In this document: one piece after another, positions 901 through 23,686 of the stretch
Layout: each line of letters opens with the position of its first letter
Position numbering within the stretch: position 1 is the first letter of the stretch
From: Kofleriaceae bacterium
Lineage (GTDB): Bacteria > Myxococcota_A > Polyangia > Haliangiales > Haliangiaceae
DNA: 23,686 nucleotides
Assembly: GCA_015075455.1 (NCBI GenBank)
Contig: JABTUH010000016.1
Location: forward strand, 192,001-215,686
Direction of reading: 5' to 3'
Program-made: the position numbers and the translations under genes
The notes under the pieces: generated by a model
What the model was told of the DNA's origin: nothing
What the model saw: only the letters and a program-made list of their open reading frames with translations
The model's database searches: none

Positions 901-917
901 GTGGAGCTCCGATGGAT

Positions 918-2141: not shown

Positions 2142-2188
2142 ACCCGCTGCGACGTTGGCGGGGCGCTGGGCCGCGGCAACGTTCCGGT

Positions 2189-2929: not shown

Positions 2930-2953
2930 TCGGAGCGACCGAATGCCCGTTCG
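2919..2953. promoter_or_regulatory. Candidate TetR operator: 15-bp inverted repeat 'cgaacgagcattcgg-agcga-ccgaatgcccgttcg'
   Basis: Half-sites are reverse complements with 1 mismatch in 15, separated by 5 bp. Lies between/overlapping the divergent tetR start and the OMP start, with an RBS-like GGAG at 2932-2935. Confidence 0.5.
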
Positions 2954-8754: not shown

Positions 8755-9138
8755 TCAGCCGGCCGTGGCCGCGATCAGCGCCAGCACCCGCGCCCGCAGC
8801 GCCTGCGGCGCCCACGGCTTGGCGATGACCTCGTCGACGACACCGGCGGCCTGGGCCGCGACCAGGGTCGGCTCGTCGTCGAAGCCGGTCACGACCACGA
8901 CCCGCAGCCGGGGCCAGCGCGCGCGCGCGGCCCGGGCCAGCTCGACCCCGGTCGGCCGCCCCAGGGCCAGGTCGCTGACCAGGGCGTCGGCCGGCCAGCG
9001 CTCGAGCACCGCCAGGGCCTCGGTGGCGTCGGCGGCGGCCACCACCTCGGCGGCGCGGGCGAAGGTCCGCACCATCAGGTCGCGGTTGTACAGCTCGTCG
9101 TCGACGACCAGGATGCGCGGCGGCGGACCGTCAGCCAC
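8755..9138 (-). CDS. Single-domain response regulator (CheY-like receiver)
   Basis: 'RILVVDDE' acidic pocket, '[12 protein letters not shown]' phospho-acceptor Asp, 'VVVVTG' Thr, 'AKPW' Lys. No output domain. GTG start overlaps the histidine-kinase stop by 8 nt. Confidence 0.8.
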
Positions 9139-10501
9139 CGCCGACCTCGTCGCCGAGGCCCGCTGCCCGTGATCCTGGCGCGACCGCGAGCGGCGCCGGG
9201 GCCTCGACCCGCGGCCGCTCCGCCGCGCCGTCGCTCGGGCCGCGCACCGGGATCGTGACCACGAACTCGGCGCCAGCGCCGGCGCGGTTGGCCCAGCGCA
9301 AGGAGCCGCCGTGGGCGCGCACGATGTTGGCGCAGATCCACAGCCCGAGGCCGGTGCCCTCGCCGACCTCCTTGGTGGTGAAGAACGGATCCGAGATCTT
9401 CTCCATCAGGTCGGGCTTGATGCCGGGCCCCGAGTCACAGATGGTGACGCGGATCGCCGCCCCGTCGTCGACGGTCTCGATCGCGACGTCGATCCACCCG
9501 GTGCCGGCGATGGCCTGGGCGGCGTTGGTCAGGATGTTCATGAACACCTGGTTGACGTGGCCGGCGTTGCACAGCACCCGCGGCACGCCGGGCGCGATCC
9601 GGCGCCGGACCTCGACCCGGTTCTTGAGCAGGGGCCCGATCAGGTTGAGCGTGGTGTCGATGCCGCCGACGATGTCGGTCTCGGCCAGCTCGTTACCCCC
9701 GGTGCGCGCGAAGCTCTTGAGATCGGCGACGATGTCGGCGGTGCGCTCGGCGCCGGCCCGGATCGACCGCAGGAGCTTGCGCCAGTCGGCGACCAGGAAG
9801 TCGAGCTCGACCTCGGCCTTGAGCGCGTCGAGCGCGGCCCGCAGCTCGGGCGGCAGCGCCGCGCCATCGACCAGCGCCACCAGCCGCAGCAGGTCCTCCA
9901 TGTACTGGCCGAGGAAGTCGACGTTGCCGTAGACGAAGTTGATCGGGTTGTTGAGCTCGTGGGCGATGCCGGCCACCAGCCGGCCCAGCGACGACATCTT
10001 CTCCTGGTGGACGAGCTGGGCCTGGGCCGCGCGCAGCTCGTCGGTGCGCTCCCGCACCTTCTCCTCGAGGTCGCCCTTGGCCCGCCGCTCGTGCTCGAGC
10101 GCGACCTTGAGCCGGCGCTGGATGCGGACGTCGGCGGTGACGTCGCGGTAGGTCTCGACCACCACCGCCTCGCCGTCGTCGAGCTCGACCGGGGCCGCGG
10201 TCACGATGAAGGTGAGGTCCTCGCCGTCGCCGCGGCGGGCGCCGATCTCGTCGACCCGAAGCCGCCGCCCGACCTCGCGCACCTTGCAGCCCAGGCACGC
10301 CTGCTCGCAGATCTCGAGCTTGAACAGCTCGTGGCAGCGGGCCCCGGCCTTGACCTTCTCGGCGAGCTGGCGCCCGCGCAGGCCGGTCAGCGCCTCGTAG
10401 GCCTGGTTGTAGTGGAGCACCCGACGCTCGGCGTCGAGGACGACGGCGGCGTCGACGCTGCCATCGAGGAGCTGGGTGATCTGGTGGAACAGCTTGGCCA
10501 A
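9131..10501 (-). CDS. Sensor histidine kinase: N-terminal PAS-like domain with 4-Cys motif, coiled coil, HisKA, HATPase_c
   Basis: H-box '[19 protein letters not shown]', N-box '[17 protein letters not shown]', G1 'DSGPGI', G2 'GTGLGLWI'. N-terminal '[19 protein letters not shown]' (C-x8-C-x3-C-x2-C). TTG start at 10499-10501. Confidence 0.85.
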
Positions 10502-10550
10502 GCGGGGGGCTCGGGGGGCGGAGCGCGGGATGGTGCCGGATCGGTCCGGA

Positions 10551-11048
10551 TCAGGCCTCCGCCAGGAACGACAGGTAGCGCTCGGGCAGGTCGTCGAACT
10601 CCATGGTCGCGCCGCACTGCGAGCAGGCGAACTGCGGGATCTCGTGCTTGCCGCCGGTCTGCGTGACGTCGACCAGCTTCTCCTCCTCCTGGCCGCAGCG
10701 GTCGCACACGTAGGGCGCGAAGAAGGAGCGGATGCGAGCGTTGCCGCGGAAGTTGTAGATCATGTTGAGCTGGGTCACGATCGCCGGCGAGCAGTGCGAG
10801 AACGACAGCTCGGTGACGTGGGGCAGATCGCGGACGAAGTTGACCCACTCGCGCACGCCGCAGCTGTTGATGCGGCGGACCTCGCCGAGCTGGAACGCCA
10901 CGGCGCCGCGCAGCCGCCGCCGCAGCTCGACGAAGTCGGCGTTCTCGTCGATCTCCCCCACGAACTCGACGGTGGTCAGGCCGGGGCGTTCGCGGATGCG
11001 CCACGACAGCGCGACCGGCTCGGGCCCCCGCACGTCCGCCGTCGCCAT
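10551..11048 (-). CDS. STAS-domain (anti-sigma-factor-antagonist-like) protein fused to C-terminal C4 zinc ribbon
   Basis: '[18 protein letters not shown]...[23 protein letters not shown]...SPAIVTQL' aligns by eye to SpoIIAA ('IRLTGELD...IVLNLEDLSFMDSSGLGVILG...SPAVKRL'), including the phospho-Ser position. C-terminal 'CDRCGQ-x24-CSQCG' zinc ribbon. ATG at 11046-11048, 4 nt after the upstream gene stop. Confidence 0.75.
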
Positions 11049-11052
11049 CGCC

Positions 11053-11976
11053 TCACTCCATCCGCTCGGGCGACTTCTCGAAGTGCTGGCGGACCTCGGT
11101 CCGCGCCGCCTCGTCGAGCGACGCCGGCTCGATCAGCACGTCCTTGACGTCGAAGCGCACCGGCTCGGGGCTGGCGAAGACGCCGCGCTTGACGACGCGG
11201 CCCATGCGCCCGGCGAGGCCCTGGTAGGCGGCCTTCGACGGCGAGGCCCAGCCCGAGATCGCGCCGCCGCCGCCGAAGCGGGTCACCGCGGTCCCGACCG
11301 AGGCGACCGTCGCCGCCGGCACCTTGGCGTTGACCTGGACGAAGGCGGGGTTGGGCACCGCGCCGGTGTCGAACAGCTTGGCCAGGCCCTTCTGCGAGCC
11401 GATGGGCGCGAACACCGCCTGCGCGCCCTTGTACGACGCGACCTCGGCGACCGCGGCCGTCAGGTCGGGCTTGCCGACCCGGCTGGCGAAGAAGCCGGCG
11501 TCGACCTCGGACTCGAGCATGGCGTTGTCGACGAAGCCGTTGTCGTTGCAGCCGGTCTGCACGAACGCCAGCTTCTTGCCCTCGAGCGCCTTCATGTCGC
11601 CGCCGGCGCCCGAGAACAGGGCGTAGGTGCGGGCGCCGCTGCCGCCGATCTGGGCGTTGGCCAGCAGGTTCCAGCCCAGGTTGGTGGCGTAGCACTGGGC
11701 GTCGACGATCGCGAAGTCGACGCCGGCGCTCTTGAGGGCGCCGAACGAGGCGAACGACTTGGCCTCGGTCTTGACCCCGGTCTGGGCCTCGATCGCCTTG
11801 GCCAGGCCCTGGACGTAGGACAGGCGGTCCTGGGCGGTGCCGAACTCGACCGACGGCGCGTAGATGCCGATCACCAGCTTGCCGGGCGCCGGCTGGGTGG
11901 TGCCGGGACGGACCACCAGGGCGACGGCCAGGGCGACCAGGCAGAGCGTCGGGATGATGATGCTGAGCTTGCGCAT
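11053..11976 (-). CDS. Periplasmic solute-binding protein, PhnD/SsuA-like (putative)
   Basis: Signal peptide '[22 protein letters not shown]'. AGGAG 8 nt upstream of ATG. Type-2 SBP-like pattern '[10 protein letters not shown]...[13 protein letters not shown]...[11 protein letters not shown]...VDAGF'. Family assignment is tentative. Confidence 0.55.
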
Positions 11977-11995: not shown

Positions 11996-14647
11996 CTAGT
12001 AGCCGTAGATCCGCTTCTTGGCGTCGATCCACTTCTGGAGATCGCGCGCGCCGGCGACCCGGCCCGACGCCGAGCGCCAGGCCTCGTAGGCGTCCTTGGG
12101 CCGCCCCGCCTGGTCGTAGAGGATGCCGAGGTTGACCAGCGCCTCGGGCGGCTGGCCGCGCAGCGCCTCGAGGGCGCCGATCTTGCTCTTGTCGAGCGAC
12201 AGCACCGCGCGGTTGTTGACCAGGCGACGCTTGGCGTCGTCGCTGGCGAAGCGCTCGGCGCTGTCGAGGGCCTTGGCCGCGGGCCCGGTGCGGCCGTTGC
12301 GCCAGTGGTCGAACGCGACGTACTCCCACGACGACGCGATCAGGTCGCGGACCTTGGTGCTGAAGGCGCCGGTGGCGCTGCCGAGCAGGCGGGTGAAGGT
12401 CGCGGCCGCTCGTTCGCGCAGGGTGGCGTTGTTCGAGCGGTAGTCGGCGTAGGCGCCGAAGAACTCGGTGCCGACCTTGGCGTAGGGCGCCTTGAGGTAC
12501 GCGGCCTGGTTGCCCTTGGCGGCGAGCTGCTTGAAGTACTTGCCGGCCTCGGCGGTGTCGCCCTTCTCGAGCAGGGCCAGGGCGTAGCTGAACTCGAAGG
12601 CCGCTGGCTCGGTGCCCTTGAGCAGCGAGGGCTCGCGGGTCGCGCGCTCCAGGTCGGCCACCGCCTCCGCGTCCTTGCCGGCCTTGATCGCCCGCCAGCC
12701 GCGGCGGAACAGGGCGAGGGCGAGGTTGCGCTTGGCCGCGGGCGCCACCTCCGGCGACTGGGCGGCGAAGCCCACGGCGATGCCGAGCTTCTCGACCGCC
12801 TCGTCGAGCTTGGTGTCGACCAGCAGCGGCGCCCACTCGGTGTAGATCTCGGCCTTCATCAGGTTCGCCTGGTTCTTGGTGGCCTCCTCGTCGGCCTCCG
12901 CGAAGTGCTGGGCGGCCCGCGCCTTGTCGGGCTTCTTCGCGCACAGGTGGGCGCGGCCGGCCAGGCGGTTGTAGAGCATGGAGTAGCCGCGGCGGTTGTC
13001 CTTGATGCGGTCGAGGTAGCGCAGCCCGCCGTCGCAGTCGCCGCGGTCGATGGCCAGGACCGCCAGGTTGAGCGCGACCATCGGCGAGCGGTCGTCGACC
13101 TTGAGCGCCTCCTCGAGGAAGGCGGCCGCGGTCTTGCCGTCACCCTTGGTGAAGGCGCCGGCGGCCTGGGCGTTGATGGTCTCGACGAGCGCGCGCCGGA
13201 TCTGCAGCTCCCTGGGTCGCAGGGCCACCGCGGCCTCGAAGCGCTGGCGCGCCACCACCAGCTTGCCCTGGTTGTACTGGGCCTTGGCGCTGACCAGGTA
13301 GAGCTCGGCGGCGAGCTCGGGCGGCGCGCTGGCGAACGCCTTGCCGGCGATGAGCTGGTCGGCGGTCTTGGCGGCGTCGCCGTCGCGCCGGGCCGCCAGG
13401 TAGGCGCCGCCGAGCTCGATGCCGAGGTCGAAGCTCGACGGGTCGAGCTGGCGGCCGGCCTCGAGCTTCTCGATGGCCAGCGCCAGGTTGGTGTTCTGGG
13501 CGCCGGTCGACGGCATGCGGCGGTAGGTCTTGCCCAGCCGCACGCTGAGCTCGCTGGCGCCCGCGCCGCCGCGCATGAGCTTCTCCGCCTGCAGGTAGGC
13601 CGCCAGGGCCTGGCCCCAGTCGCGCTCCTGGAAGTAGGCGTCGCCGATGAGGATGTAGCCGCGGGGCTCGTTCTTGCGCTTCTTCAGGTACTCGTTGGCG
13701 GCCTGCCGCGCCCGCTGCGGCAGCTTCTTGGCCAGGTACGCCGAGCCGAGGTTGAAGTAGACCGAGCCGTTGCTGTCGATGTTGCGCGGGTTGCCCTGCA
13801 GGCGCTCGCACACGGTGATGGCCTGGTCGAACTTGCGCAGGCCGGTGTAGGCGGCGCACAGTCCGATGTCGGCGTTGGGCTGGGCGTACTGGGCCTTGCC
13901 GTGCTTGCGGACGACGGTCTCGAACTCCTTGACCGCGCGCTCGTAGTCCCGGTTGGCGGCGTCGTGCTGGCTCTCGCGCACCGCCATGCGGCCGCGCGCC
14001 AGGTACGAGAAGCCGAGCCGGATGCGGGGCAGGACGTCGCGGCTCTCGCGATCGGCGGGCCGCGCCGCCAGGTACGCCTCGTAGGCGGTGATCGTCTTCA
14101 GCGGATCGCGGTTGAAGTAGAACTCGCCCAGGATCTGCTGGTTGGAGAACAGCGAGGCCCGCTTGGCCACCGCCTTCTCGGCGACCGCGACCGCGCCCGG
14201 CTTGTCGCCGGTCGCCCACAGGAGCAGCGCCTCCTGCTCGAGGACCTCGGCGGCCTCGGGGTGGGTGCGCTTGGCCACGGTGCGGATGAACTCGAGCCCG
14301 CCCTTGTAGTCGGCCTGGATGATGAAGATCGCCGCCCGCTTGCCGTAGGCCTCGGGCGGGACCTGGGTCGGGGCCGAGCGGATGGCCGAGTCGAAGGCCG
14401 CGGCGGCGCGTCGCCAGTTGGCCTCCTCGAAGTAGCGATCGCCCTCCTTCAGGTCCTCGGCCACGTCGGCGACGGCGGTGCCGGCGGCGAGGAGGACGAG
14501 CACGAGCCCGAGGGCGGCGGCCCAGGTGCGGGCCAGGCCGCGCGTGGCGCAGGACGTTCGCGTTGGTTCGTTCACGGGTTCCTCGTTCACGGGTTCCTCC
14601 ACGGGGGCCGTCGCGGCCCGGGCCTGCCAGCGCTCAGCGTTGCGCAC
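11996..14647 (-). CDS. Large TPR-repeat protein (883 aa) with N-terminal signal/anchor
   Basis: Hydrophobic 'WAAALGLVLVLLAAGTAVA' followed by many ~34-aa TPR-like units ('AAAAFDSAIRSAP', 'AVAEKAVAKRASLF', 'GDAYFQERDWGQALAAYLQA', etc.). Sits in the operon between the PP2C and SBP genes. Start at 14647 is preceded by a 15-bp tandem repeat in the coding region. Confidence 0.75.
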   Translation of the reverse strand: MRNAERWQARAATAPVEEPVNEEPVNEPTRTSCATRGLARTWAAALGLVLVLLAAGTAVADVAEDLKEGDRYFEEANWRRAAAAFDSAIRSAPTQVPPEAYGKRAAIFIIQADYKGGLEFIRTVAKRTHPEAAEVLEQEALLLWATGDKPGAVAVAEKAVAKRASLFSNQQILGEFYFNRDPLKTITAYEAYLAARPADRESRDVLPRIRLGFSYLARGRMAVRESQHDAANRDYERAVKEFETVVRKHGKAQYAQPNADIGLCAAYTGLRKFDQAITVCERLQGNPRNIDSNGSVYFNLGSAYLAKKLPQRARQAANEYLKKRKNEPRGYILIGDAYFQERDWGQALAAYLQAEKLMRGGAGASELSVRLGKTYRRMPSTGAQNTNLALAIEKLEAGRQLDPSSFDLGIELGGAYLAARRDGDAAKTADQLIAGKAFASAPPELAAELYLVSAKAQYNQGKLVVARQRFEAAVALRPRELQIRRALVETINAQAAGAFTKGDGKTAAAFLEEALKVDDRSPMVALNLAVLAIDRGDCDGGLRYLDRIKDNRRGYSMLYNRLAGRAHLCAKKPDKARAAQHFAEADEEATKNQANLMKAEIYTEWAPLLVDTKLDEAVEKLGIAVGFAAQSPEVAPAAKRNLALALFRRGWRAIKAGKDAEAVADLERATREPSLLKGTEPAAFEFSYALALLEKGDTAEAGKYFKQLAAKGNQAAYLKAPYAKVGTEFFGAYADYRSNNATLRERAAATFTRLLGSATGAFSTKVRDLIASSWEYVAFDHWRNGRTGPAAKALDSAERFASDDAKRRLVNNRAVLSLDKSKIGALEALRGQPPEALVNLGILYDQAGRPKDAYEAWRSASGRVAGARDLQKWIDAKKRIYGY
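14568..14600. repeat. Tandem 15-bp repeat 'gttcacgggttcctc' x2 (+1 partial) encoding 'EEPVNEEPVNEP' in the TPR gene 5' end
   Basis: Seen directly in sequence. Confidence 0.8.
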
Positions 14648-14663: not shown

Positions 14664-16352
14664 TCAGAAGACCTTGCCGATGACGAGCGTGATGTCGTCC
14701 TTGCGGATGTTGTCGCCGAAGAAGTTGGCGGCGTCGGTCACGACGGCGTCGCGGATCTCCCCGGCCTCGAGCGCGGCCGCCCGCCGCACCGAGGCCCGGA
14801 AGCGCTTCTCGCCGTACTCCTCGCCGCCGCTCGACTCGCACTCGACGATGCCGTCCGTGTACCAGACCAGGATGTCGCCGGGCATGAGCTCGGTGGTCTT
14901 GACCTCGTACTTCGACTCCTTGAGGTCGCCGAGCCGGTTGCCGCGGATCATCAGCGAGCCGAACTCGCCCTGCCCGCCCTCCGAGGTCCGGTACAGGTAG
15001 GGGAAGTTGTGGCCGGCGTTGGCGTACGTGATCGTGCGCCGGCGGGTGTCGATGACCGAGGCGAAGCAGGTCATCACGAACTTGCGCTTGGCGCTCTGGT
15101 AGATCGCCGAGTTCATGATCTCGAGCAGCTTGGCCGGGTCGACGTTGTCGCCGTTGACGGCGCGGGCGACGTCGCACGCCGCCTTGGCCGCCGCCGTGAT
15201 CATCGCCGACGGCACGCCGTGGCCGGTGACGTCGCCGATCACGACCAGGACCTTGTCGCCGACCATGTCGTGCCACGTCCACCAGTCGCCGCCGCACTGC
15301 GACGCCGGCTGGAAGTAGCCGGCGAAGCGCAGCGTGCCCTTGTCGACCGGATCGTGGGTCGGCACCAGGGTCTCCTGGATCGTCCGCGCCACCTCGAGCT
15401 CCTTCTCCATCGTCGCCTTCTCGGCGGTCTGCTGGAGCAGCACGAGGAGCTGGTCGGCCATGAAGTTGAAGTTCTCGCCGAGCAGGCCGAGCTCGTCGGT
15501 CGACTTGACCTCGACGCGGGCGGCCAGATCACCGCGGGCGATCTGGTCGGCCTTCCACGCCAGGAGCTTGATGGGCTTGGAGATCTGGACGCCCTGGAAG
15601 ATCGCGAGCAGGGTGCCGATGAGCACGAACAGCGCGCCGAAGGCGCCGGTGCGTAGCGCGGCCTTGCGCGCCTCCTCGTCCTTGAGCTTGGCGCTCTCGC
15701 GGGCGAAGGTGTCGACCGGCGACAGGTCGTAGCCGAAGACCACGTAGCCCTGACGGTTCTCGCCCGGGTCGTCGGCCGCGGCGGCGGCCGGGCTCCAGCC
15801 GACCTGCTCGCCCGAGAACACCGGGTAGGCGAACAACAGCAGCTTGCCGTCCTCGCCGGCGGTCCAGTCGAGCGAGACGCTGATCTCGGGCTCGGTCGCG
15901 GCGGCGCGCCGCTTCCACTCCTCCAGCACCTTGGCCCACGACGCGTGCTTGACCCGCTCGCCCTCGACCTCGCCGGCGGCGTCGCAGCGGTCGTCCTTGC
16001 GCCGGCAGTACTTGATGAGGTTCTGGACGCGACCGACGACGTAGACCAGCTTGAGCTCGGCGTCGTGCTTGAGGGTGTCGTCGACGATCTCCTTGATCTC
16101 GACGTCCTGGGTGTTGATGAAGTACGAGCGCAGGCCCTGGCCGAAGAAGATCGTGTTGGTCTCGCCCTTGCTCTCGAGCTGCTTGCGGTACTCGGTGATC
16201 TTGTCCTTGGCCGCGCGATCGTAGGCCTCGCGGATGTTGCACGCGTTCAGCAGACCGAAGCCCACCACCGTGAGGAGGATCAGGAACGTGGTGGTCAAGA
16301 TCATCTTGACCGAGATGCTCAAGCCGCCGCGCTTTGCCATTGGCCATGCCAT
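14664..16352 (-). CDS. Membrane-bound RsbU/SpoIIE-type PP2C serine phosphatase with periplasmic sensor region and HAMP domain
   Basis: TM1 '[18 protein letters not shown]', ~200-aa extracytoplasmic region, TM2 '[17 protein letters not shown]'. HAMP-like '[45 protein letters not shown]'. PP2C motifs '[10 protein letters not shown]', '[15 protein letters not shown]', 'NAGHNFPYL', 'VWYTDGIVE'. Confidence 0.85.
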
Positions 16353-16522: not shown

Positions 16523-17089
16523 ATGCCGGGGATGGAGTCCCACCCCGCGCTGACCCAGTTCCTGACCGAGTTCAAGCGCGTGGCCAGCGCCATCGTCGAC
16601 AGCTACTTCATCGTCGACACCGAGCGCCGCATCGTCGACTTCAACCGCGCGTTCTTCGCGATGCTGCCGCGGCAGGTGGCGCGCGGCCTCAAGGGCAAGC
16701 GCTGCTTCGAGGTCATCGAGCTCAACATCTGCCGCAGCGAGTGCATCGCCCAGCAGTGCTGGACCGACAACCGACACGTCCGGCTCGACGAGATCAGCGG
16801 CAAGGTGCTGGGCGAGCCCGACGCCAAGGAGCTGCGCTTCATCCTGTCGGCGGTGCCGATCACCGACGAGAGCGGCCAGCACGTCGGCGCCCTCGAGATC
16901 CAGCGCAACGTCACCGACGAGGCGGTGGTCCAGGTCAAGTACCAGGAGATGCTCGAGAACGAGGCCCGCGAGCGCGAGCGCCTCGCCAACCAGATCCGCG
17001 CCCGCACCAAGGAGCTGCTCGAGACCAACCAGCTCCTGCTCAAGACCCAGAAGGAGCTCCTGTCCTACAAGAAGGGCCTCTCGGCCTGA
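16523..17089 (+). CDS. Stand-alone PAS-like sensor domain with 4-Cys motif plus C-terminal coiled coil; kinase-less paralog of the histidine-kinase N-terminus
   Basis: '[22 protein letters not shown]' (C-x8-C-x3-C-x4-C). Collinear similarity to histidine-kinase residues ~20-190 ('[16 protein letters not shown]' vs '[16 protein letters not shown]', '[10 protein letters not shown]' vs '[10 protein letters not shown]', '[14 protein letters not shown]' vs '[14 protein letters not shown]'). Ends just before where the histidine-kinase H-box would start. Start at ATG 16523 or 16532. Confidence 0.75.
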
Positions 17090-17111: not shown

Positions 17112-18059
17112 CTACTTGCCGCTGAAGAGCAGGAACGCCAGCACGCCGATGGCCGCGAGCAGCACGACCACGAGCACGTAGATCACGGCGCTCGACTTGG
17201 GCTGGGTCAGCGCCGGGCGCTCGGCGGGGACCGGCGTGGAGAAGCTGCCGCTGCCGGGGTTGGTGCCGGGCGAGGTGAAGTTGCCCGGCCGGCTGCCCGG
17301 GTTGGTGCCCTGGAACGAGCCCACCGGGCGCATGCCGGGGTGGGTGGTGGTCGTCACCGGCGTCATCGACGGCCGGCTGCCCGGCTTGGCGGTGATCGAC
17401 GGCGAGCTGCCGCTGGGCCGCGAGATCGACGGCAAGGACGGCACGCTGGGCAACGACGACACCGACGAGCTGTGCAGGCTCGAGGTGCCGGTGCGCGAGC
17501 GGATCTTGGACTTCTCGCCGTTGTCACCGGAGGCGAACTCCTTGATGACGCCGTTGATCTTGTCGGGCTCGGCGATCTTCTTCTGGTTCGACAGGAACGC
17601 GAAGTACGAGTCGGCCATGTCGTCGAAGTCCATGACCAGATCGCACTCGTCGCAGCGACAGGTCGGCGGCTCGTGCGGCCCCGAGCCCATGTCGGCCGCC
17701 TCGACGAGCAGCACCTTCTCCTCGTCGCACTCGGGACAGAAGTACGGGACGTAGAAGCTCTTGACCACGCCCGACCCGGTGAAGTTGTTGACGAGGTTGA
17801 TCTGGGCGACGATCGCCGGCGAGCACTCGACGAGCACCGCGCGGGTCGCCTGGGTCTCGAGCTTGCCGAGCCAGTTGACCCAGTCGCGCACGCCACACGA
17901 GTTGATGCGCTCGATCTCGCCGAGATCGATCACCGCCGTACCCGCCGGGATCTTGTCGGTCAGCGCGGTGAGCTCGTTGTCCTCGTCGATGACACCGCTC
18001 AGCTTGACGTAGCTGACGTCGTCGCGGTGGTGGACCGACGCCTGAAACTTCTGGCTCAT
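17112..18059 (-). CDS. STAS-domain plus C4 zinc-ribbon protein with Ser/Pro/Gly/Thr-rich linker and C-terminal transmembrane anchor
   Basis: Paralog of 10551..11048: '[23 protein letters not shown]...[15 protein letters not shown]...YFCPECDEE...[15 protein letters not shown]'. Then ~110 aa low-complexity ('[29 protein letters not shown]...[20 protein letters not shown]') and '[22 protein letters not shown]' TM. GGAGA 5 nt upstream of ATG 18057-18059. Confidence 0.8.
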
Positions 18060-18197: not shown

Positions 18198-21100
18198 TCA
18201 CGCCTGGTTCGGGGCAGCGGTGAGGTAGTCGCGTAGGCGCTGGTAGTCGTCGGACAGATAGAAGCGCACCAGGTCGGCCCCGCCCAGCACCGCGCCCAGG
18301 GCCACGGTGGCGTCGTGAGACAGGAGCATCTCGCCGGTCAGGCGCGCGATCATCCAGGTGGCGGCGGCGAAGTCGTCGCAGGCGAGGAGCCCGCCGCGCT
18401 TGGCGGCGCCCAGCATGCCGTCGATCCAGGCGTCGCCGTCGACGTCGCGGCCCCAGTTCTGGTGGCGCTCGATGACCTTCTGCGCCCGCTTGGACAGCCC
18501 CTTCACGAACTCGTTGGTCGGCGCCGGCCGCTCGCCCTCGGGCAGCAGCAGCGACTTCATGAAGTTGCCGAGCTCGGATCGCTGGCGACGGCCGAGGTGG
18601 TGGAGGAAGGCGTACCCGCCCCGCAGCGCCTCGAAGGCCCAGCCGAGGAGGAAGCGGCGCGGCCCGTCGCCCTCGCCGACCAGCGACCGGTCGATCACCA
18701 CCAGGCGGCGGGGCGCCGCCACCAGCGCCACCAGGCCGGGCACGCGCTCGCCCACGAAGACCTCGGCCTCGATGGCGTCGAGCCGGGCGATGTCGGCGAC
18801 CGCGACCTTGAGCCCGGGGTCGTCCATGCCCTGTACCGGGATCAGGTTCTCCCCCAGCATCGGCGGCGGGTACAGGCCGCCCAGCTCGGCCGCGGCCGCC
18901 GCCAGCACCTCGCCGAACGGATCGCGCGCCGCCGTCGTCACCAGCAGCCGCATCCGCATCTCGTCGTCGAGCGCCCGCCGCATCGGGTGGTAGGGCAACG
19001 ACGCCCGCACCTTGGCGGCGGCGCCGCGATCGGACTCCTCGGCGAAGCCGAGCTGCTCCATCACCGTCAGCGCCCGCGCCGCCCGCTCCGGCTCGCCGAC
19101 GCGGGTGTAGTACGACGACAGGAGGCGGTAGGCCATCGCGTTGTGGATGTCGCGATCCACGACCTTGCGCAGCTCCGAGATCGCCTTGCCCGGGTCGTCG
19201 ATGGCGTAGATCTCGGCCAGCGCCACACGATCGGGCGGGCTGTCGTCGACGCCCAGGATGCCGCGGTAGGCCTCGATCGCCGCCGGCCGGTCGCCGGACG
19301 CGAGGAGGATGCGGGCCAGGCCGCGCTGCAGCGGCACCGCCGCCGGCGGCCCGCCCTTCTCCATCGCGGCGTGGGCGGCGTCGATGAGCAGGCCCTCGGC
19401 GCCGCGCTGGTCGCCGGCCTCGGCGGCGCGCCGCGCCAGGGCCAGGGCCGGCGGCGCGTAGCCCGGATCGTACTCGCTGGCCCGGCGGTACTGCGAGGTC
19501 GCGCCGCGAGGATCGCCCGAGGTCTCGGTGATGCGCCCGCGGTAGTAGTAGTAGCGGGCCAGGTTCTCGGGCGAGATCGCCGAGCCCGGCGCCGCCGCCA
19601 GCTCGATCACGCGATCGATCGCCGCCCGGGCGTCGGCGTGGCGCCCCAGCAGGTAGTGCTCCTGGGCCAGGCGGTAGTAGGCCTCCTCGTGGATCGGGTC
19701 GATGCGGATGACCTCGCGCAGGACCGAGATCGCGCGGTGGGGCTCCATCTCGCAGTCGGCGTGGATCTCGGCCTGCCGCATGAGCGCGCCGACGCGCACC
19801 GCCTGCGACACGTCGCTGTGGTTCAGGAACTTGACGATGGCGTCGACCGCGTGGCTCCACCGCCGCATGTTGAGGTGGAGCGTGATCATCGCCGACAGCA
19901 CCTCGAAGTCGTCGGGCGCCAGCGCCACCGCCTCGGCGTAGAGCTGCTGGGCCTGATCGAGGTCGCCCTCGCGCTCCTTCATGCCGGCCTGGGCGACGCG
20001 GACCCGGGCCAGGAAGGGCCCGGCGTCGTCGCGCTTCTTGTAGAGCTTGTCGAGCTCGCGGTAGATCGCGTCGAAGTCCCAGGCCTCGGGGTGCTTGCGC
20101 TGCAGGTCGAGCAGGCCGTCGAGGGCCGACAGGTTGTTGGGCTTGATCTCGAGGGCGACGATCAGGCTCTCGGCGGCGCCGCGGGCGTCGCCGGTCATGT
20201 GGGCGACCACGCCGCGCCGGCGATAGAACTCGCTGCGGGTGTTGGGATCGCCCTCGCGCATGGCCTTGACCGCCAGCGCCTGGGCCAGGGGCAGCGCCCG
20301 CTGCCACTCCCCGGCGTCGAAGTAGTGCTCGAACAGGGCCTGGTTGGCGGGCAGGCACTCGGGATCGACGGCGAGCGCGCTCTCGTAGTAGTGCATCGCC
20401 CGGTCGGGCTGGCCGAGGCGCGACTCGTAGATGCGGCCGATCTGGGCGAAGACGCCGGCCCGCTCCTTGTCGTCCTGCCACAGCTTGACCTCGAGCTCGA
20501 GGGTCTGGATGACCCGCGGCCAGTCCTCGCGCCGGCGGTAGAGGTCGCGCAGGCCGTGGACCGCCGGCAGGCACGAGGGCGAGGTCTTGATCGCCGCGTC
20601 GTAGTAGCGGATCGCGTCCTCCTCCTTGCCGAACTTGGCCTCCATCACCGAGCCGCACTTGAAGTAGAGCAGCGCCTTGAGGTTGCGATCGGTGGTGACC
20701 CGGATCTGGCGGCGGGTGACGTCGACGAACTCGGCCCACTGCTCCGTCGACTCGTAGATGCGGCCCAGGGCCTCGAGCGCCTCCTTGTTGGCGGGCGCGA
20801 TCTCGAGGATGCGCTGGTAGTGCTCGACCGCGCGCGACTCGTCGCGCAGGCCCTCCTCGCTGATCTGGGCGATGCGCTTGTGCAGGGTGGTCGCGGCGTC
20901 GCCGGCGGGGGCGGTGGCCAGGCGGTGGCGCAGGACCTCGACCAGCTTGCCCCAGTCGTGGTTGCGCTCGTACCAGCGCTCGAGCGCGTCGAGGGCCTCG
21001 ACGTCGGACGGATCGATGTCGAGGATGTGCTGGTAGAGGCGGGCGGCCTCGCCGAAGTCGCGCATCTTGGCGGCGGCGACCCGGGCGGCGCGGCGCAGCG

Positions 21101-23686
21101 ACTCGAGGCGGCGCTCGTCGTCGCGGGTCAGGCCGGCCCGCTTCTCGTAGACCCCGATGAGCCCGCTCCAGTCGCTCTTCTGCGAGAAGATCGACTCCAG
21201 GAACTTCACGCTGGTGTCGTTCTCGGGATCGATCTCGACGACCTTGACGTAGGACTGGGCCGCGGCGTCGAGCTCCCCCAGGTACTGGAGCTGGACCTGG
21301 CCGCGGCGGGCGTAGAGGTCGCCCAGGCGGTAGGCCCGCGACGCGCCGCTCTCCACCAGGTCGATCGCGCTCTGGTAGAGCTTCATCGCCGACGCCCAGC
21401 GCTCGTGCTTGTAGCAGAGCTTCTCGAGCGAGGTGAAGACCTCGCGGTTGGCGGGGTCGGCGAGGAACGACGCGGTGAAGGCGGCGATCGCGCCGTCGGG
21501 GTCGCCGCGGTTCTGCTTGACCTGGGCGATGCGCCCGTAGAGCTGGGCCCGCTCCAGCTTGTCGATCGTCGAGTCGGCGCGGGCCTCCAGCACCCGCATC
21601 AGATCCTTGTCGCGGCCGAGCCGCTCGTACAGCCGCTCGAGGGCCTCGAGCGCAGGCACGTACTGGGGGCGGCGCTCGAGGATCGACTCGTAGGCGAGCG
21701 CGGCGTCGGCGGGCTTGGCCAGCTTCTCCTCGCGGAGCTGGCCGAGCCGGGTCAGGATCGCGAGCTGGGCGTCGACGTTGCCCGCCGGCGCCGCCGCCAG
21801 CTCGCGCTCGAGCGCGCCGGCCAGGTCGGCCCAGCGCTCGGTGCGCTCGAGCAGCCGGGTCAGGTCGCGGTGGCTGTCGGTGCTGGCGCTGCCCTGGGCC
21901 GCGAGCTGGTGGAAGCGGATCGCGGTCTCGACGTCGCCGAGCTTGTCCTCGGCCATGCGCGCCAGCGACGCCGCCAGCCGCGGCCGCTCGGCGGCCGGGG
22001 TCAGCTCGATCTCGGCCTGCCGGATCTCGGCCAGCTCGGTCCACTCGCCCAGGCGCTCGAGGGCCTCGGCCAGGACCCGCAGGTTGGCCAGGGTCCGCGG
22101 CGCGCGCCGGTAGGCGATCGCCAGCTCGCGCCAGCGATCGTGGCCGCGGGCGACGCGGTCGACCCCGGCCAGGGCGGCGGCGTCGGCGGCGTCGATCGAG
22201 AGCGCGTCGTCGTAGGCGGCGAGCGCCCGCTCGGGGTCGCGCCCGTCCTCGTACAGCTTGCCGGCCTCGAGCTGGATGGCGAGGCGCCGCGACGGCTCGA
22301 CGCCGCGGGTCAGCTCCTGCTCGAGCAGCGCCAGCAGGCGATCGTTGCGGCGGGCCCGGCGGTGGAGCTGCTGCAGGGCGCGCAGCGGCTCGACGGCGCG
22401 ATCGTCGGCGCGCGCGGCGCGCTCGTAGGCGGCCAGGGCCGCGGCGTCGTCGTTGCGCCGGGTCTCCTCGAGCTGGCCGATCTCCAGGTACATCTGGGCC
22501 TGGCGGCGGACGTCCTTGACCAGCTCGGCGACGCGGGCCCGTAGCTCGATCGCCTTGTCCCATTGCCGGCCGTGCTCGCACAGCCGCGCCAGCTCGTAGG
22601 TGACGTCGGGGTCGTCGGGCCGCAGGGTCTGGGCCTGCTCGAGCACGGCGCGGGCGCGCCGGGTGTCGCTGATGTGCTCGGCCAGGATCTTGCCGTGCTC
22701 GCGCAGGAGCACCAGCTTGAGCTCCTCGGAGGTGCACAGCGCGGTGAGATCGGACAGCGTGCTCGACAGCTCGCGCCAGCGCTCGGCCTTGCGGTAGATC
22801 GCGGCCAGCGCGCCCTTGGCCGCGGGATCCTGCGGCGCCTGGCGCGAGGCCTGGAGAAGGAGCTCCTCCGCCTCCAGCGGCCGGGCGCGCGCGAGCTCGA
22901 GGGCGCCGGCGGCGAACAGGAGCGCGGTGGCGGCGCGGCGGTCGCGGGCCGACTGCGCCGCCGCCCGGTAGATCTCGCCGAGCTGGGCGCGGTCGCGCTG
23001 GCGACGGGCGAGGCGCGCGAGGTGGTCGAGCTCGCTCTGGCGCGCCGGACCGGGAGCGCGCTCCGACGACGCGACCTTGAGCAGCTCGAGGGCGCGGGCG
23101 ACGTCGCCCAGCCGGGCCTCGATGACCAGCGCCGCCCGCCGGTTGCCGGCCCGGGCGCCGTCCTTGGCCTGGGCCAGGAGGTGGCCGACCAGGGCCTCGG
23201 GCTCGCCGGCGCGCAGGCGCTCGAGCGTGAGCAGGCCGCTGGCCGTCCGGGCACCGGACGTCGCGAGCTGGGCCAGCTCGCCGGCCATGGCCAGCCCGTG
23301 GGCGTCGGCGATCTCGAGGGCGCGCCAGGCGTGGGCCGCGGACAGGCCGCCGGCGGCCTGCGACTCGGCGAGGCCACGGCGCGCGGTCACGGCGTCGCCC
23401 CAGCGGCTGGCGCGGTGGCCGACCCGGGCCATGGCCAGCCGCGCCAGCACCGGGCCGTAGCCCTCGTCGCCGGCGGCCGAGGCGTAGCCGGAGACCGCGG
23501 CGCCCAGGACGCCGGCGGCGAGCCGGGCGTCGGCGAGGGCGTGGCGGGTGGCGGCCTCCTCGCGGCGGGCCCCGGCGTCGGCCTCGAGCAGCTCGAGGCG
23601 GCGCTCGTGCAGCGCGGCCACGGCCGCGCCGTCGGCGCCCCCGGGCAGGCGCTGGGCGGCGTCGAGGGCGAGGTCGATCGCGCGCA
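18198..23686 (-). CDS. Giant TPR-repeat protein (>1829 aa), N-terminus beyond window edge
   Basis: Frame open from window end to TGA at 18198-18200. Dozens of TPR-like helical pairs ('AIELRARVAELVKDVRRQAQMYLEIGQL', 'ALAAYERAARADDRAVEPLRALQQLH', 'AIRYYDAAIKTSPSCLPAVHGLRDLY', etc.). Acidic/aromatic C-terminal region. Confidence 0.75.
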   Translation of the reverse strand, partial: RAIDLALDAAQRLPGGADGAAVAALHERRLELLEADAGARREEAATRHALADARLAAGVLGAAVSGYASAAGDEGYGPVLARLAMARVGHRASRWGDAVTARRGLAESQAAGGLSAAHAWRALEIADAHGLAMAGELAQLATSGARTASGLLTLERLRAGEPEALVGHLLAQAKDGARAGNRRAALVIEARLGDVARALELLKVASSERAPGPARQSELDHLARLARRQRDRAQLGEIYRAAAQSARDRRAATALLFAAGALELARARPLEAEELLLQASRQAPQDPAAKGALAAIYRKAERWRELSSTLSDLTALCTSEELKLVLLREHGKILAEHISDTRRARAVLEQAQTLRPDDPDVTYELARLCEHGRQWDKAIELRARVAELVKDVRRQAQMYLEIGQLEETRRNDDAAALAAYERAARADDRAVEPLRALQQLHRRARRNDRLLALLEQELTRGVEPSRRLAIQLEAGKLYEDGRDPERALAAYDDALSIDAADAAALAGVDRVARGHDRWRELAIAYRRAPRTLANLRVLAEALERLGEWTELAEIRQAEIELTPAAERPRLAASLARMAEDKLGDVETAIRFHQLAAQGSASTDSHRDLTRLLERTERWADLAGALERELAAAPAGNVDAQLAILTRLGQLREEKLAKPADAALAYESILERRPQYVPALEALERLYERLGRDKDLMRVLEARADSTIDKLERAQLYGRIAQVKQNRGDPDGAIAAFTASFLADPANREVFTSLEKLCYKHERWASAMKLYQSAIDLVESGASRAYRLGDLYARRGQVQLQYLGELDAAAQSYVKVVEIDPENDTSVKFLESIFSQKSDWSGLIGVYEKRAGLTRDDERRLESLRRAARVAAAKMRDFGEAARLYQHILDIDPSDVEALDALERWYERNHDWGKLVEVLRHRLATAPAGDAATTLHKRIAQISEEGLRDESRAVEHYQRILEIAPANKEALEALGRIYESTEQWAEFVDVTRRQIRVTTDRNLKALLYFKCGSVMEAKFGKEEDAIRYYDAAIKTSPSCLPAVHGLRDLYRRREDWPRVIQTLELEVKLWQDDKERAGVFAQIGRIYESRLGQPDRAMHYYESALAVDPECLPANQALFEHYFDAGEWQRALPLAQALAVKAMREGDPNTRSEFYRRRGVVAHMTGDARGAAESLIVALEIKPNNLSALDGLLDLQRKHPEAWDFDAIYRELDKLYKKRDDAGPFLARVRVAQAGMKEREGDLDQAQQLYAEAVALAPDDFEVLSAMITLHLNMRRWSHAVDAIVKFLNHSDVSQAVRVGALMRQAEIHADCEMEPHRAISVLREVIRIDPIHEEAYYRLAQEHYLLGRHADARAAIDRVIELAAAPGSAISPENLARYYYYRGRITETSGDPRGATSQYRRASEYDPGYAPPALALARRAAEAGDQRGAEGLLIDAAHAAMEKGGPPAAVPLQRGLARILLASGDRPAAIEAYRGILGVDDSPPDRVALAEIYAIDDPGKAISELRKVVDRDIHNAMAYRLLSSYYTRVGEPERAARALTVMEQLGFAEESDRGAAAKVRASLPYHPMRRALDDEMRMRLLVTTAARDPFGEVLAAAAAELGGLYPPPMLGENLIPVQGMDDPGLKVAVADIARLDAIEAEVFVGERVPGLVALVAAPRRLVVIDRSLVGEGDGPRRFLLGWAFEALRGGYAFLHHLGRRQRSELGNFMKSLLLPEGERPAPTNEFVKGLSKRAQKVIERHQNWGRDVDGDAWIDGMLGAAKRGGLLACDDFAAATWMIARLTGEMLLSHDATVALGAVLGGADLVRFYLSDDYQRLRDYLTAAPNQA

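What the first reader, a model, noticed from the sequence alone, without database searches (positions are those of the whole stretch)
10551..11048. STAS (SpoIIAA-like) domain fused to a C-terminal Cys4 zinc ribbon
The N-terminal ~110 aa align convincingly to anti-sigma-factor antagonists, including the phosphorylatable Ser position ('RINSCGV' vs SpoIIAA 'MDSSGLG'). The C-terminal 50 aa carry 'CDRCGQ...CSQCG', a treble-clef/zinc-ribbon pattern. Anti-sigma antagonists are normally single-domain. A zinc ribbon suggests an added protein- or nucleic-acid-binding output or a redox-sensitive element. The gene is wedged between an SBP and the PAS-HK in one operon.
Basis: partly seen in the sequence, partly recalled or inferred. 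Interest (0 to 1): 0.75.

Follow-up and report, generated by a model that had tools for sequence, protein, structure and literature searches.

The report
STAS switch protein with built-in zinc ribbon
This small myxobacterial gene encodes a known type of phosphorylation-controlled switch protein (STAS fold) that carries a four-cysteine zinc ribbon; it belongs to a large, unnamed family that sits next to its own kinase, phosphatase and sensor enzymes, so it looks like an undescribed variant of bacterial partner-switching signalling.

Summary

The two parts form one module. About 3,700 50%-identity clusters carry it, mostly Myxococcota. The four Cys are about 97-99% conserved, and no Pfam or NCBIfam model covers the module. 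NCBI calls the protein 'hypothetical'.

Ser62 aligns with the phospho-serine of TM1442, SpoIIAA and RsbV. It is kept in 145 of 148 primary modules but lost in the degenerate second copy of tandem fusions, which still keeps the Cys4.

Context supports a partner switch. The operon has a HAMP-PP2C (SpoIIE-type) phosphatase and a second, membrane-anchored STAS-zinc-ribbon protein. A REC-like/RsbW-like serine kinase gene lies just beyond the window's right end in the same genome. In paralogous loci that kinase gene directly precedes the STAS-zinc-ribbon gene (17/21).

The next gene downstream is usually a PAS enzyme: a histidine kinase here, a GGDEF cyclase elsewhere. No sigma factor was seen in the cluster.

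Best reading: a phospho-switchable antagonist whose output is a PAS enzyme, with a structural zinc ribbon. This is a new variant of a known kind. Phosphorylation, zinc binding and the output are inferred.

The parts
10551..11048 (-). Target gene: 165-aa STAS-zinc-ribbon protein (identical to NCBI MBE7453653.1 / MCL4226000.1, 'hypothetical protein', Kofleriaceae bacterium)
   Evidence: ORF; identical database entry; structure model.
10713..11012 (-). STAS-fold part, about aa 13-112 (b1 15-21, b2 24-33, a1 40-45, b3 48-60, a2 62-73, b4 78-84, a3 88-97, b5 104-115)
10863..10865 (-). Codon of Ser62 (AGC), the position equivalent to the phospho-serine in the D-S-x-G motif of STAS antagonists
   Evidence: The profile alignment places 'rinSvGvreW' on 'YMDSAGLG' of TM1442 and 'YMSSAGLR' of 4hyl. 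Ser is kept in 78/80 stand-alone, 36/36 single-fused and 31/32 first-tandem modules, but in only 2/32 second-tandem copies.
10590..10712 (-). Cys4 zinc ribbon, aa 113-153: C115-x2-C118 at the turn between strands 108-115 and 121-127, and C142-x2-C145 before strand 148-151
   Evidence: Model DSSP, with mean pLDDT 94-95 in the ten-residue blocks that hold each CxxC pair. The four Cys are 97-99% conserved in 184 module copies. Pfam and NCBIfam zinc-ribbon hits are below threshold.
10563..10604 (-). Conserved C-terminal tail '[14 protein letters not shown]' (aa 149-162), with a short helix at 155-159
   Evidence: Invariant among orthologues. F151, D152, Y158 and F161 are conserved across the family.
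9131..10501 (-). PAS-HisKA-HATPase histidine kinase directly downstream. Its PAS domain has a Cys cluster, [17 protein letters not shown]. Proposed output partner.
   Evidence: Pfam. A PAS gene starts within 250 bp downstream in 54/59 orthologous loci. The Cys cluster is conserved in many but not all orthologous kinases.
8755..9138 (-). Stand-alone response-regulator receiver; its gene overlaps the kinase gene by 8 nt
   Evidence: Pfam Response_reg, E 1.7e-17.
11053..11976 (-). 307-aa protein with a hydrophobic N-terminal segment (read as a secretion signal, not tested) and a PhnD-like substrate-binding fold. Its stop codon is 4 nt before the target's ATG.
   Evidence: 11 of 23 orthologues hit Pfam PF12974 Phosphonate-bd, best E 5.3e-9. 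The window protein itself has no hit.
11996..14647 (-). 883-aa TPR protein
   Evidence: Pfam TPR families; conserved in orthologous loci.
14664..16352 (-). HAMP-SpoIIE (PP2C) phosphatase with a hydrophobic N-terminal segment, probably membrane-bound (not tested). Candidate phosphatase of the two STAS-zinc-ribbon proteins.
   Evidence: Pfam SpoIIE 2.8e-42 and HAMP 7.1e-14. Present in 41/59 orthologous loci.
16532..17089 (+). Divergently transcribed small PAS + coiled-coil protein (about 185 aa) with the same type of Cys cluster, [19 protein letters not shown]
   Evidence: ORF; Pfam PAS_9 and PAS_4; gene calls of 185-188 aa in L087/L088; Cys cluster conserved.
17112..18059 (-). Second STAS-zinc-ribbon protein (315 aa): the module (INSCG, CPEC...CDEC, MDFDD), then a Ser/Pro/Thr-rich linker and a C-terminal hydrophobic helix, so probably tail-anchored
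   Evidence: Translation; reciprocal phmmer hits with the target.
18198..23686 (-). 3' part of a giant TPR gene (2,129 aa in the same genome). It runs off the right end of the window. The RsbW-like kinase gene lies divergently just beyond its start.
   Evidence: Pfam TPR. The L087/L088 gene map shows the 2,129-aa TPR gene and a 312-aa gene upstream on the opposite strand. That gene matches the K335 family by hhalign at 100% probability, E 7.5e-39.

Best explanation
The gene encodes a STAS-fold switch protein whose last beta strand continues into an integral Cys4 zinc ribbon. The two parts form one composite module.

It is one of two such proteins in a conserved Kofleriaceae/Haliangiales signalling cluster. 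The cluster also holds:
- a REC-like/RsbW-SpoIIAB-like serine kinase ('K335', just outside the window);
- a HAMP-PP2C phosphatase, probably membrane-bound;
- two TPR proteins;
- a PhnD-like binding protein, probably secreted;
- a Cys-rich PAS histidine kinase with its receiver, and a small PAS protein.

Most likely mechanism (inferred): the RsbW-like kinase phosphorylates Ser62 and the HAMP-PP2C removes the phosphate in response to an envelope signal. The phosphorylation state then decides which partner the STAS-zinc-ribbon protein binds.

The gene directly downstream is usually a PAS enzyme: a histidine kinase in this lineage, a GGDEF cyclase in some paralogues. No sigma factor gene was seen in the cluster. 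So the regulated output is probably that PAS enzyme.

The zinc ribbon is probably a structural element that provides a family-specific docking surface.

Shown here: the gene, the fold, the conserved Cys4 and Ser, the module's spread and fusions, and its genomic linkage to the kinase, phosphatase and PAS enzymes.
Inferred: zinc binding, phosphorylation of Ser62, who binds whom, and the signal.
For: Fold and motif:
- S62 aligns with the D-S-x-G serine of TM1442, 4hyl and prestin.
- The longest run of invariant residues, R58-D74, covers the phospho-loop and helix a2. That is the surface SpoIIAA uses to contact SpoIIAB (knowledge of 1TH8/1TID, not tested here).
- Ser is kept in 145 of 148 primary modules but replaced by P/E/D in most second tandem copies, which keep the Cys4.

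Phosphatase:
- A SpoIIE-type PP2C is in the operon, in 41/59 orthologous loci and in 13/21 paralogous loci.

Kinase:
- The K335 model has a REC-like domain plus a Bergerat domain. It matches LvrC, SpoIIAB (TM 0.71-0.76), RsbW (up to 0.80) and SiaB.
- E-x3-N and GGAGLG motifs are invariant.
- K335 ends within 150 bp upstream of the STAS-zinc-ribbon gene in 17/21 paralogous loci.
- Starting from two K335 homologues, the downstream gene was again a STAS-zinc-ribbon gene.
- In the window's own genome a K335 homologue lies divergently upstream of the giant TPR gene. The reduced-operon orthologues also have a K335 gene on the opposite strand about 8 kb upstream; in L039, whose ORFs were mapped, it sits divergent from the giant TPR gene.

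Output:
- PAS-HK lies directly downstream in 52/59 orthologous loci. A PAS-HK or PAS-GGDEF lies directly downstream in 11/21 paralogous loci.
- Reduced operons lack the PP2C, the 883-aa TPR and the SBP genes but keep the giant TPR gene, the tail-anchored copy, the small PAS gene and the pair STAS-zinc-ribbon then PAS-HK.

Precedents for non-sigma outputs:
- HsbA-HsbD (PMC5085249).
- SiaC-SiaD (PMC8457831).
Against: - No experiment shows phosphorylation, zinc binding or any interaction.
- A conserved Ser at this position also occurs in STAS domains not known to be phosphorylated, such as prestin 'IDSVGV'. It may only cap helix a2.
- In this lineage the kinase gene is about 13 kb from the target rather than adjacent.
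- The REC-like domain of K335 lacks the acidic pair at b1 (consensus 'VxGxx'), so its regulation is unclear.
- Many family members are fused to, or adjacent to, Hanks-type kinases, which could be the real kinases.
- The link to the PAS enzyme rests on gene order alone.
- The model's pLDDT is moderate (78.7), and the Cys geometry was not measured.
- Not every ORF in the window was scanned for a sigma factor domain.
Confidence: 0.6

Rival explanations
1. Constitutive adaptor. The protein has a STAS fold but is not phospho-regulated. Ser62 is only a helix cap, and the module is a fixed scaffold or accessory subunit of the downstream PAS kinase, in the way MlaB serves MlaF or STAS domains serve SLC26 transporters.
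For: - MlaB and SLC26 STAS domains are among the structural matches.
- Prestin STAS shares the 'DSvGv' and 'CSp.vv' motifs without known phosphorylation.
- The tightest and most conserved linkage in this lineage is to the PAS-HK, not to the kinase.
Against: - A SpoIIE-type PP2C and an RsbW-like kinase are repeatedly co-encoded. That would be unexplained.
- Ser is lost specifically in degenerate second copies while the Cys4 stays. This suggests the Ser has a function beyond folding.
Confidence: 0.2
2. Redox or metal switch. The Cys4 site is a sensor rather than a structural element. Thiol oxidation or zinc loss would change partner binding, as in zinc-containing anti-sigma factors (RsrA) or Hsp33, and would act together with the Cys-rich PAS domains of the neighbouring kinase and small PAS protein.
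For: - The cluster is unusually rich in conserved Cys motifs: two Cys4 ribbons plus C-x9-C-x3-C-x2-4-C clusters in both PAS proteins.
Against: - The motif is a plain CxxC...CxxC ribbon, without the H-x3-C-x2-C signature of ZAS anti-sigma factors (read from the sequence).
- The ribbon occurs in every family context, including fusions to Hanks kinases, PilZ, REC-PilZ and FIST. That suits a generic structural role.
- The PAS Cys cluster matched the searched pattern in only some PAS partners of paralogues.
Confidence: 0.12
3. Nucleic-acid-binding output. The zinc ribbon binds DNA or RNA, so the protein would be a phospho-regulated transcription or translation factor.
For: - Weak, below-threshold similarity to RNA-polymerase and translation-factor ribbons (Zn_ribbon_RPB9, eIF-5/eIF-2B, DUF1610).
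- Some JGI names are 'RpoP' or 'RNA-binding Zn-ribbon'.
Against: - All these hits are below the curated cut-offs and cover only the CxxC knuckles.
- The C2H2-finger hits in PDB come from the P-Y-x-C-x2-C-G spacing alone.
- The ribbon and tail are acidic (EEEK..., MEFDD), with no basic patch in the sequence.
- The genomic partners are all signalling enzymes.
Confidence: 0.05

Closest known systems
SpoIIAA / RsbV anti-sigma-factor antagonists (Bacillus partner-switching systems; PDB 1TH8, 1TID, 6M36)
   Same: - Ser at the D-S-x-G position.
- An RsbW/SpoIIAB-like kinase and a SpoIIE-type PP2C are co-encoded.
   Different: - An extra, integral Cys4 zinc ribbon and a conserved acidic tail (165 aa against about 110-120 aa).
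- No sigma factor seen in the cluster.
- The kinase carries an N-terminal REC-like domain.
- Sequence similarity is too low for Pfam STAS models to detect the protein.
HsbR-HsbA-HsbD of Pseudomonas aeruginosa (PMC5085249, PMC6482189) and SiaABCD (PMC8457831)
   Same: A phospho-switchable STAS or STAS-like protein, controlled by an RsbW-type kinase and a PP2C, acts on a signalling enzyme (a diguanylate cyclase) rather than only on a sigma factor. Paralogues of the target lie directly upstream of PAS-GGDEF genes.
   Different: - HsbA and SiaC have no zinc ribbon.
- In this window the adjacent enzyme is a histidine kinase.
- Kinase and phosphatase are separate proteins here. In paralogous loci the phosphatase sits in a giant Pkinase-STAND-TPR-GAF-SpoIIE protein.
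LvrC of Leptospira (REC + Bergerat-fold anti-sigma factor; PDB 9QIH, PMC13269768)
   Same: Best structural match of the co-encoded K335 kinase, with the same REC-then-Bergerat architecture. It shows that two-component and partner-switching pathways can be joined.
   Different: - This concerns the partner protein, not the target.
- K335's REC-like domain lacks the b1 acidic pair, so it may not be phosphorylated by a histidine kinase.
- The paper, as read here, does not mention a STAS partner for LvrC.
STAS (COG1366) domains fused to eukaryotic-like kinases in Sorangium cellulosum (Treuner-Lange 2010, PMC2887360)
   Same: The paper noted 71 COG1366 proteins in S. cellulosum, some fused to Ser/Thr kinases. 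It also noted a HAMP-SpoIIE phosphatase as the only SpoIIE orthologue group shared by myxobacteria. The tandem STAS-zinc-ribbon-Pkinase proteins found here are probably what was seen.
   Different: The passages read in that paper do not mention the zinc ribbon, the module as a unit, the RsbW-like partner or the link to PAS enzymes.

Membership tests
STAS domain superfamily (SpoIIAA-like fold) | Alternating beta-alpha fold, b1-b2-a1-b3-a2-b4-a3-b5 | tested here: met
   [not shown]
STAS domain superfamily (SpoIIAA-like fold) | Match to Pfam STAS (PF01740) or STAS_2 (PF13466) above the gathering score | tested here: not met
   The target has no hit even at E<=10. 17 of 72 relatives hit STAS_2 and 12 of 72 hit STAS at E<0.01. 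The family profile hits STAS chains in PDB at E 2.6e-3 to 0.08. Homology is therefore supported only through intermediates and structure.
Anti-sigma-factor antagonists of partner-switching systems (SpoIIAA/RsbV type) | Ser/Thr at the start of helix a2 in a D-S-x-G loop, phosphorylated by the cognate kinase | tested here: inconclusive
   The position is met: N61-S62-C63-G64 aligns with D-S-x-G, and Ser is about 98% conserved in primary modules. Phosphorylation itself cannot be tested with these tools.
Anti-sigma-factor antagonists of partner-switching systems (SpoIIAA/RsbV type) | Co-encoded RsbW/SpoIIAB-type GHKL serine kinase | tested here: met
   The K335 family folds as REC-like + SpoIIAB/RsbW-like. 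It is adjacent in 17/21 paralogous loci. It is present in the same cluster of the window's genome, outside the window.
Anti-sigma-factor antagonists of partner-switching systems (SpoIIAA/RsbV type) | Co-encoded PP2C (SpoIIE/RsbU-type) phosphatase | tested here: met
   Window 14664-16352: SpoIIE 2.8e-42 plus HAMP.
Anti-sigma-factor antagonists of partner-switching systems (SpoIIAA/RsbV type) | A sigma factor as the final target of the kinase / anti-sigma factor | tested here: not met
   No sigma factor domain in the cluster genes scanned in the window or in the gene maps of L001-L004 and L087/L088. A sigma factor encoded elsewhere cannot be excluded.
Anti-sigma-factor antagonists of partner-switching systems (SpoIIAA/RsbV type) | Single-domain protein of about 110-120 aa | tested here: not met
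   165 aa with an extra zinc ribbon and tail. No solved STAS structure covers the ribbon.
Zinc ribbon (Cys4, two knuckles on a small beta sheet) | Two CxxC pairs at beta-hairpin turns, flanking a three-stranded sheet | tested here: met
   C115/C118 lie between strands 108-115 and 121-127, and C142/C145 lie before strand 148-151. The ten-residue blocks holding them have mean pLDDT 94-95. The Cys are 97-99% conserved.
Zinc ribbon (Cys4, two knuckles on a small beta sheet) | Match to a curated zinc-ribbon model above threshold | tested here: not met
   The best hits are all below the cut-offs: zf_UBZ 21.6 bits (cut-off 25.6), Zn_ribbon_RPB9 17.3 (25.2), Zn_ribbon_8 15.4 (34.4), FmdB 17.0 (31.3).
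Zinc ribbon (Cys4, two knuckles on a small beta sheet) | Binds one zinc (or iron) ion | not testable with these tools
   Needs ICP-MS or a PAR assay on purified protein.
ZAS-type redox-sensing zinc anti-sigma domains (RsrA/ChrR) | H-x3-C-x2-C motif in a helical anti-sigma domain | tested here: not met
   The sequence before C115 is 'FAPYVC', with no His at -4. The region is beta, not helical.

The most novel reading that the evidence does not exclude
The STAS-zinc-ribbon module, its REC-like/RsbW-like kinase and a PAS enzyme together form a distinct, widespread signalling system with no sigma factor. In this reading the Cys4 ribbon, possibly with the Cys-rich PAS domains, is a redox- or metal-sensitive gate. 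Thiol chemistry and Ser phosphorylation would then jointly decide whether a histidine kinase or diguanylate cyclase is switched on. That would be a new logic linking partner switching, two-component signalling, c-di-GMP and Hanks-kinase signalling in Myxococcota.
Probability: 0.15. Interest if true: 0.8.

Novelty: new variant of a known kind. Interest (0 to 1): 0.6.

Why it matters
STAS antagonists are a textbook bacterial switch, usually seen as single-domain proteins acting on sigma factors. Three points make this case matter.

- **A large blind spot in annotation.** The family has about 3,700 50%-identity clusters and is invisible to Pfam and NCBIfam. NCBI labels the target 'hypothetical'.
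- **An unusual build.** The fold is permanently extended by a zinc ribbon. The module is wired to histidine kinases, diguanylate cyclases, Hanks kinases and giant kinase-STAND-PP2C proteins.
- **Links between pathways.** Defining the family would improve annotation of Myxococcota genomes. It would also give testable links between the very large Ser/Thr-kinase sets of these bacteria and their two-component and c-di-GMP networks, and would show what a metal site adds to a partner switch.

Tried and rejected
- **Direct single-sequence searches.** Pfam, NCBIfam and phmmer against PDB gave no STAS hit. A family profile and a structure model were needed.
- **C2H2 zinc-finger hits in PDB**. Rejected: they span two adjacent fingers and match only the 'PYxCxxCG' spacing.
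- **AlphaFold-database fold search.** The library was not available.
- **Is the upstream 307-aa gene the kinase seen in paralogous loci?** BLASTP found no similarity. It is PhnD-like instead.
- **Matching reduced-operon orthologues to database protein ids** to obtain annotated neighbourhoods. No exact match, so I used my own ORF calls and local phmmer.
- **Literature on STAS plus zinc ribbon, CxxC or rubredoxin, and on MXAN_4562**. Nothing specific was found. The library misses most subscription journals, so absence there is not proof.
- **Spurious ORF on the opposite strand or in another frame** (10476-11147 +, 10387-11004 -). Rejected because the 165-aa product is conserved across thousands of clusters.
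- **Zinc-site geometry.** Not measurable, because model coordinates are not exposed.
Full report
**1. The observation**

Window 10551-11048 holds an ATG-started ORF of 165 aa on the - strand. It follows the stop codon of the upstream gene by 4 nt, and the next gene starts 49 nt after its own stop.

The product is identical to a Kofleriaceae MAG protein that NCBI calls 'hypothetical protein' (MBE7453653.1, MCL4226000.1). It has 628 close homologues; the top 120 are at least 70% identical and about 165 aa long. An exhaustive scan of 1.84 billion cluster representatives gave 3,667 hits at E<=1e-3 and 2,212 at E<=1e-10. Nearly all of the best 150 match across residues about 13-163. So this is a real, strongly constrained gene.

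**2. What the protein is**

Single-sequence searches do not see a STAS domain.
- Pfam and NCBIfam report only below-threshold zinc-ribbon hits on residues 105-156.
- phmmer against PDB reports only spurious C2H2-finger matches.

The conclusion is still right.
- An AlphaFold2 model built on 25 orthologues has pLDDT 78.7 and pTM 0.68. It shows b1-b2-a1-b3-a2-b4-a3-b5.
- Foldseek's 21 best PDB matches are all STAS domains: SpoIIAA, the Haliangium antagonist 4hyl, RsbV, TM1442, YchM-STAS, SLC26 STAS domains and MlaB.
- A profile of the N-terminal 110 residues of 36 family members hits only STAS chains in PDB (4hyl E 2.6e-3, TM1442 3.6e-3, prestin STAS, SpoIIAA, RsbV).
- 17 of 72 relatives touch Pfam STAS_2 at E<0.01.

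In those alignments 'rinSvGvreW' lies on 'YMDSAGLG' of TM1442 and 'YMSSAGLR' of 4hyl. S62 therefore takes the serine of the D-S-x-G loop. From my memory of the B. subtilis sequences, that serine is Ser58 in SpoIIAA and Ser56 in RsbV, the phosphorylated residues.

**3. The zinc ribbon**

Strand b5 (104-115) ends at C115-x2-C118. A hairpin follows (121-127), then C142-x2-C145 and a third strand (148-151). The ten-residue blocks holding each CxxC pair have mean pLDDT 94-95.

Across 184 module copies from the 150 best representatives, the four Cys are present in 176/177, 173/177, 166/170 and 164/166. A conserved acidic tail, [14 protein letters not shown], follows. No solved STAS structure extends over this part.

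I could not measure Cys-to-Cys distances because coordinates are not exposed. Zinc binding is an inference from the pattern, its conservation and the predicted topology.

**4. A mobile composite module**

STAS and ribbon always travel together. Of the 150 best representatives, the module occurs:
- stand-alone, in proteins of about 150-200 aa (77 of 150);
- as a tandem pair N-terminal to Hanks-type kinases, in proteins of about 700 aa;
- fused to PilZ, REC-PilZ, FIST or Pkinase-PDZ.

Ser62 is kept in 78/80 stand-alone modules, 36/36 single fused modules and 31/32 first tandem copies. It is kept in only 2/32 second tandem copies, where P, E or D replace it, although those copies retain the Cys4. 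The Ser and the metal site are therefore under separate selection. The ribbon behaves like a structural part, and the Ser like a functional site that can be lost.

A caveat: prestin's STAS domain also keeps this Ser without known phosphorylation.

**5. The operon**

On the - strand the window encodes, in order of transcription:
- the 3' part of a giant TPR gene;
- a 315-aa protein;
- a HAMP-SpoIIE PP2C;
- an 883-aa TPR protein;
- a 307-aa SBP-like protein;
- the target;
- a PAS-HisKA-HATPase kinase;
- a receiver.

A small PAS gene is transcribed divergently between the 315-aa gene and the PP2C gene.

The 307-aa protein has no Pfam hit itself, but 11 of 23 orthologues hit Phosphonate-bd (best E 5.3e-9).

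The 315-aa protein is a second STAS-zinc-ribbon module (INSCG, CPEC...CDEC, MDFDD). A Ser/Pro/Thr-rich linker and a C-terminal hydrophobic helix follow, which suggests a tail-anchored copy.

The whole arrangement is conserved in Kofleriaceae, Haliangiales and Polyangia MAGs. Reduced versions lack the PP2C, the 883-aa TPR and the SBP genes. They keep the giant TPR gene, the tail-anchored copy, the small PAS gene, the target and the PAS-HK. A PAS gene starts within 250 bp downstream of the target in 54/59 orthologous loci.

**6. The missing kinase**

In paralogous loci (40-45% identity) a gene of about 335 aa ('K335') ends within 150 bp upstream of the STAS-zinc-ribbon gene in 17/21 cases.
- K335 has no Pfam hit, but a few JGI entries call it 'anti-sigma regulatory factor (Ser/Thr protein kinase)'.
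- Its model (pLDDT 85, pTM 0.85) has a REC-like domain plus a Bergerat domain.
- It matches Leptospira LvrC, SpoIIAB (TM 0.71-0.76), RsbW (up to 0.80) and SiaB.
- E-x3-N and GGAGLG motifs are invariant.
- Starting from two K335 homologues, the downstream gene was again a 150-154-aa STAS-zinc-ribbon protein, with GAF-SpoIIE and Pkinase genes beside it.

In the window's own genome (L087/L088, which carry the identical 315-aa protein) a 312-aa gene lies divergently 176 bp upstream of the giant TPR gene. It matches the K335 profile with 100% probability, E 7.5e-39. It sits just beyond the window's right end. The reduced-operon orthologues also carry a K335 gene on the opposite strand about 8 kb upstream of the target. 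In L039, whose ORFs I mapped, it sits in the same divergent position next to the giant TPR gene.

The cluster therefore holds a full partner-switching set: kinase, two antagonists and a phosphatase.

**7. The likely output**

The cluster genes scanned in the window show no sigma factor domain, and neither do the gene maps of related loci. What recurs directly downstream of the STAS-zinc-ribbon gene is a PAS enzyme: PAS-HK(+REC) here and in five paralogous loci, and PAS-GGDEF in six others. Several paralogous loci also hold a 1,700-aa Pkinase-AAA16(STAND)-TPR-GAF-SpoIIE protein.

This resembles HsbR-HsbA-HsbD and SiaABCD of Pseudomonas, where a phospho-switchable STAS-like protein controls a diguanylate cyclase (PMC5085249, PMC6482189, PMC8457831). 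LvrC shows that a REC-Bergerat protein can join two-component and partner-switching pathways (PMC13269768).

I therefore propose that Ser62 phosphorylation, set by K335 (or a Hanks kinase) and the HAMP-PP2C, controls binding to K335 and/or the PAS-HK, and so tunes the two-component output. This step rests on gene order and analogy only.

**8. Comparison and novelty**

The protein works like a SpoIIAA/RsbV antagonist and shares its fold, Ser position, kinase type and phosphatase type.

It fails three membership features: single-domain size, detection by the STAS models, and a sigma factor seen in the cluster.

Treuner-Lange (2010, PMC2887360) noted many COG1366 proteins in Sorangium, some fused to eukaryotic-like kinases. 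The passages I read there mention neither the ribbon nor the module. A 2021 review of STAS-only proteins does not contain the words zinc or cysteine. My text searches found no paper on a STAS-zinc-ribbon combination. The library is incomplete, so this is not proof of absence.

I rate this a new variant of a known kind. It is of moderate-to-good interest because the family is large, unannotated and wired in an unusual way.

**9. Limits**

No biochemical fact is established here. Zinc binding, phosphorylation, partners and the signal are all inferences. The target's model has moderate confidence. Locus surveys used my own six-frame ORF calls and single-sequence phmmer seeds, so the counts are approximate. 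Most related sequences come from MAGs.

Noticed in passing
window 17112-18059 (-): A second STAS-zinc-ribbon protein in the same operon (315 aa). The module is followed by a long Ser/Pro/Thr/Gly-rich linker and a C-terminal hydrophobic helix ([22 protein letters not shown]), so it is probably a tail-anchored membrane copy. It is conserved in orthologous clusters.
   Followed up: partly
window 9131-10501 (-), HK residues about 56-73; window 16532-17089 (+): Both PAS domains of the cluster carry a four-Cys cluster: [17 protein letters not shown] in the kinase and [19 protein letters not shown] in the small PAS + coiled-coil protein. The cluster is conserved in the small PAS proteins and in many but not all orthologous kinases, and it matched the searched pattern in only some paralogue-linked PAS domains. 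It could be a metal or Fe-S site.
   Followed up: partly
L087:2358-3296 (-), just beyond the window's right end in the same genome: A 312-aa REC-like + RsbW/SpoIIAB-like serine kinase gene ('K335' family; no Pfam model; 367 relatives at E<=1e-3), transcribed divergently from the giant TPR gene. The REC-like domain lacks the b1 acidic pair, so it may be a pseudo-receiver. Its best structural match is Leptospira LvrC (9QIH).
   Followed up: yes
L070:11552-16681, L083:4641-9674, L068:3432-8585 (-): Giant (about 1,700 aa) proteins that combine Pkinase, AAA_16/STAND, TPR, GAF and SpoIIE (PP2C), so a Hanks kinase and a PP2C phosphatase sit in one chain. They are encoded next to the K335 / STAS-zinc-ribbon / PAS-GGDEF gene trio in paralogous loci.
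   Followed up: partly
P0135, P0140, P0155 and similar (about 700 aa): Hanks kinases with two N-terminal STAS-zinc-ribbon modules. The first copy keeps the Ser (31/32). The second has P/E/D there and a decayed W68/C86, yet keeps the Cys4.
   Followed up: partly
window 11053-11976 (-): A PhnD-like substrate-binding protein inside a signalling operon, with no phosphonate-type ABC transporter genes in the cluster. It may feed a periplasmic signal to the HAMP-PP2C. An ABC ATPase flanked by two genes of about 416 aa with no Pfam hit lies upstream of K335 in L087.
   Followed up: no
window 1-8712: An unrelated neighbourhood: a TetR-family regulator (2189-2929, -) and an AcrB-type RND pump (5650-8712, +), convergent with the end of the signalling operon. 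Several long ORFs here have no Pfam hit; I take them for high-GC shadow ORFs but did not check.
   Followed up: no
L090:8479-11514: In one paralogous locus the gene directly downstream of the STAS-zinc-ribbon gene is a polyketide synthase module (KS-AT-DH), not a PAS enzyme. The module's output partners may be more varied than HK and GGDEF.
   Followed up: no
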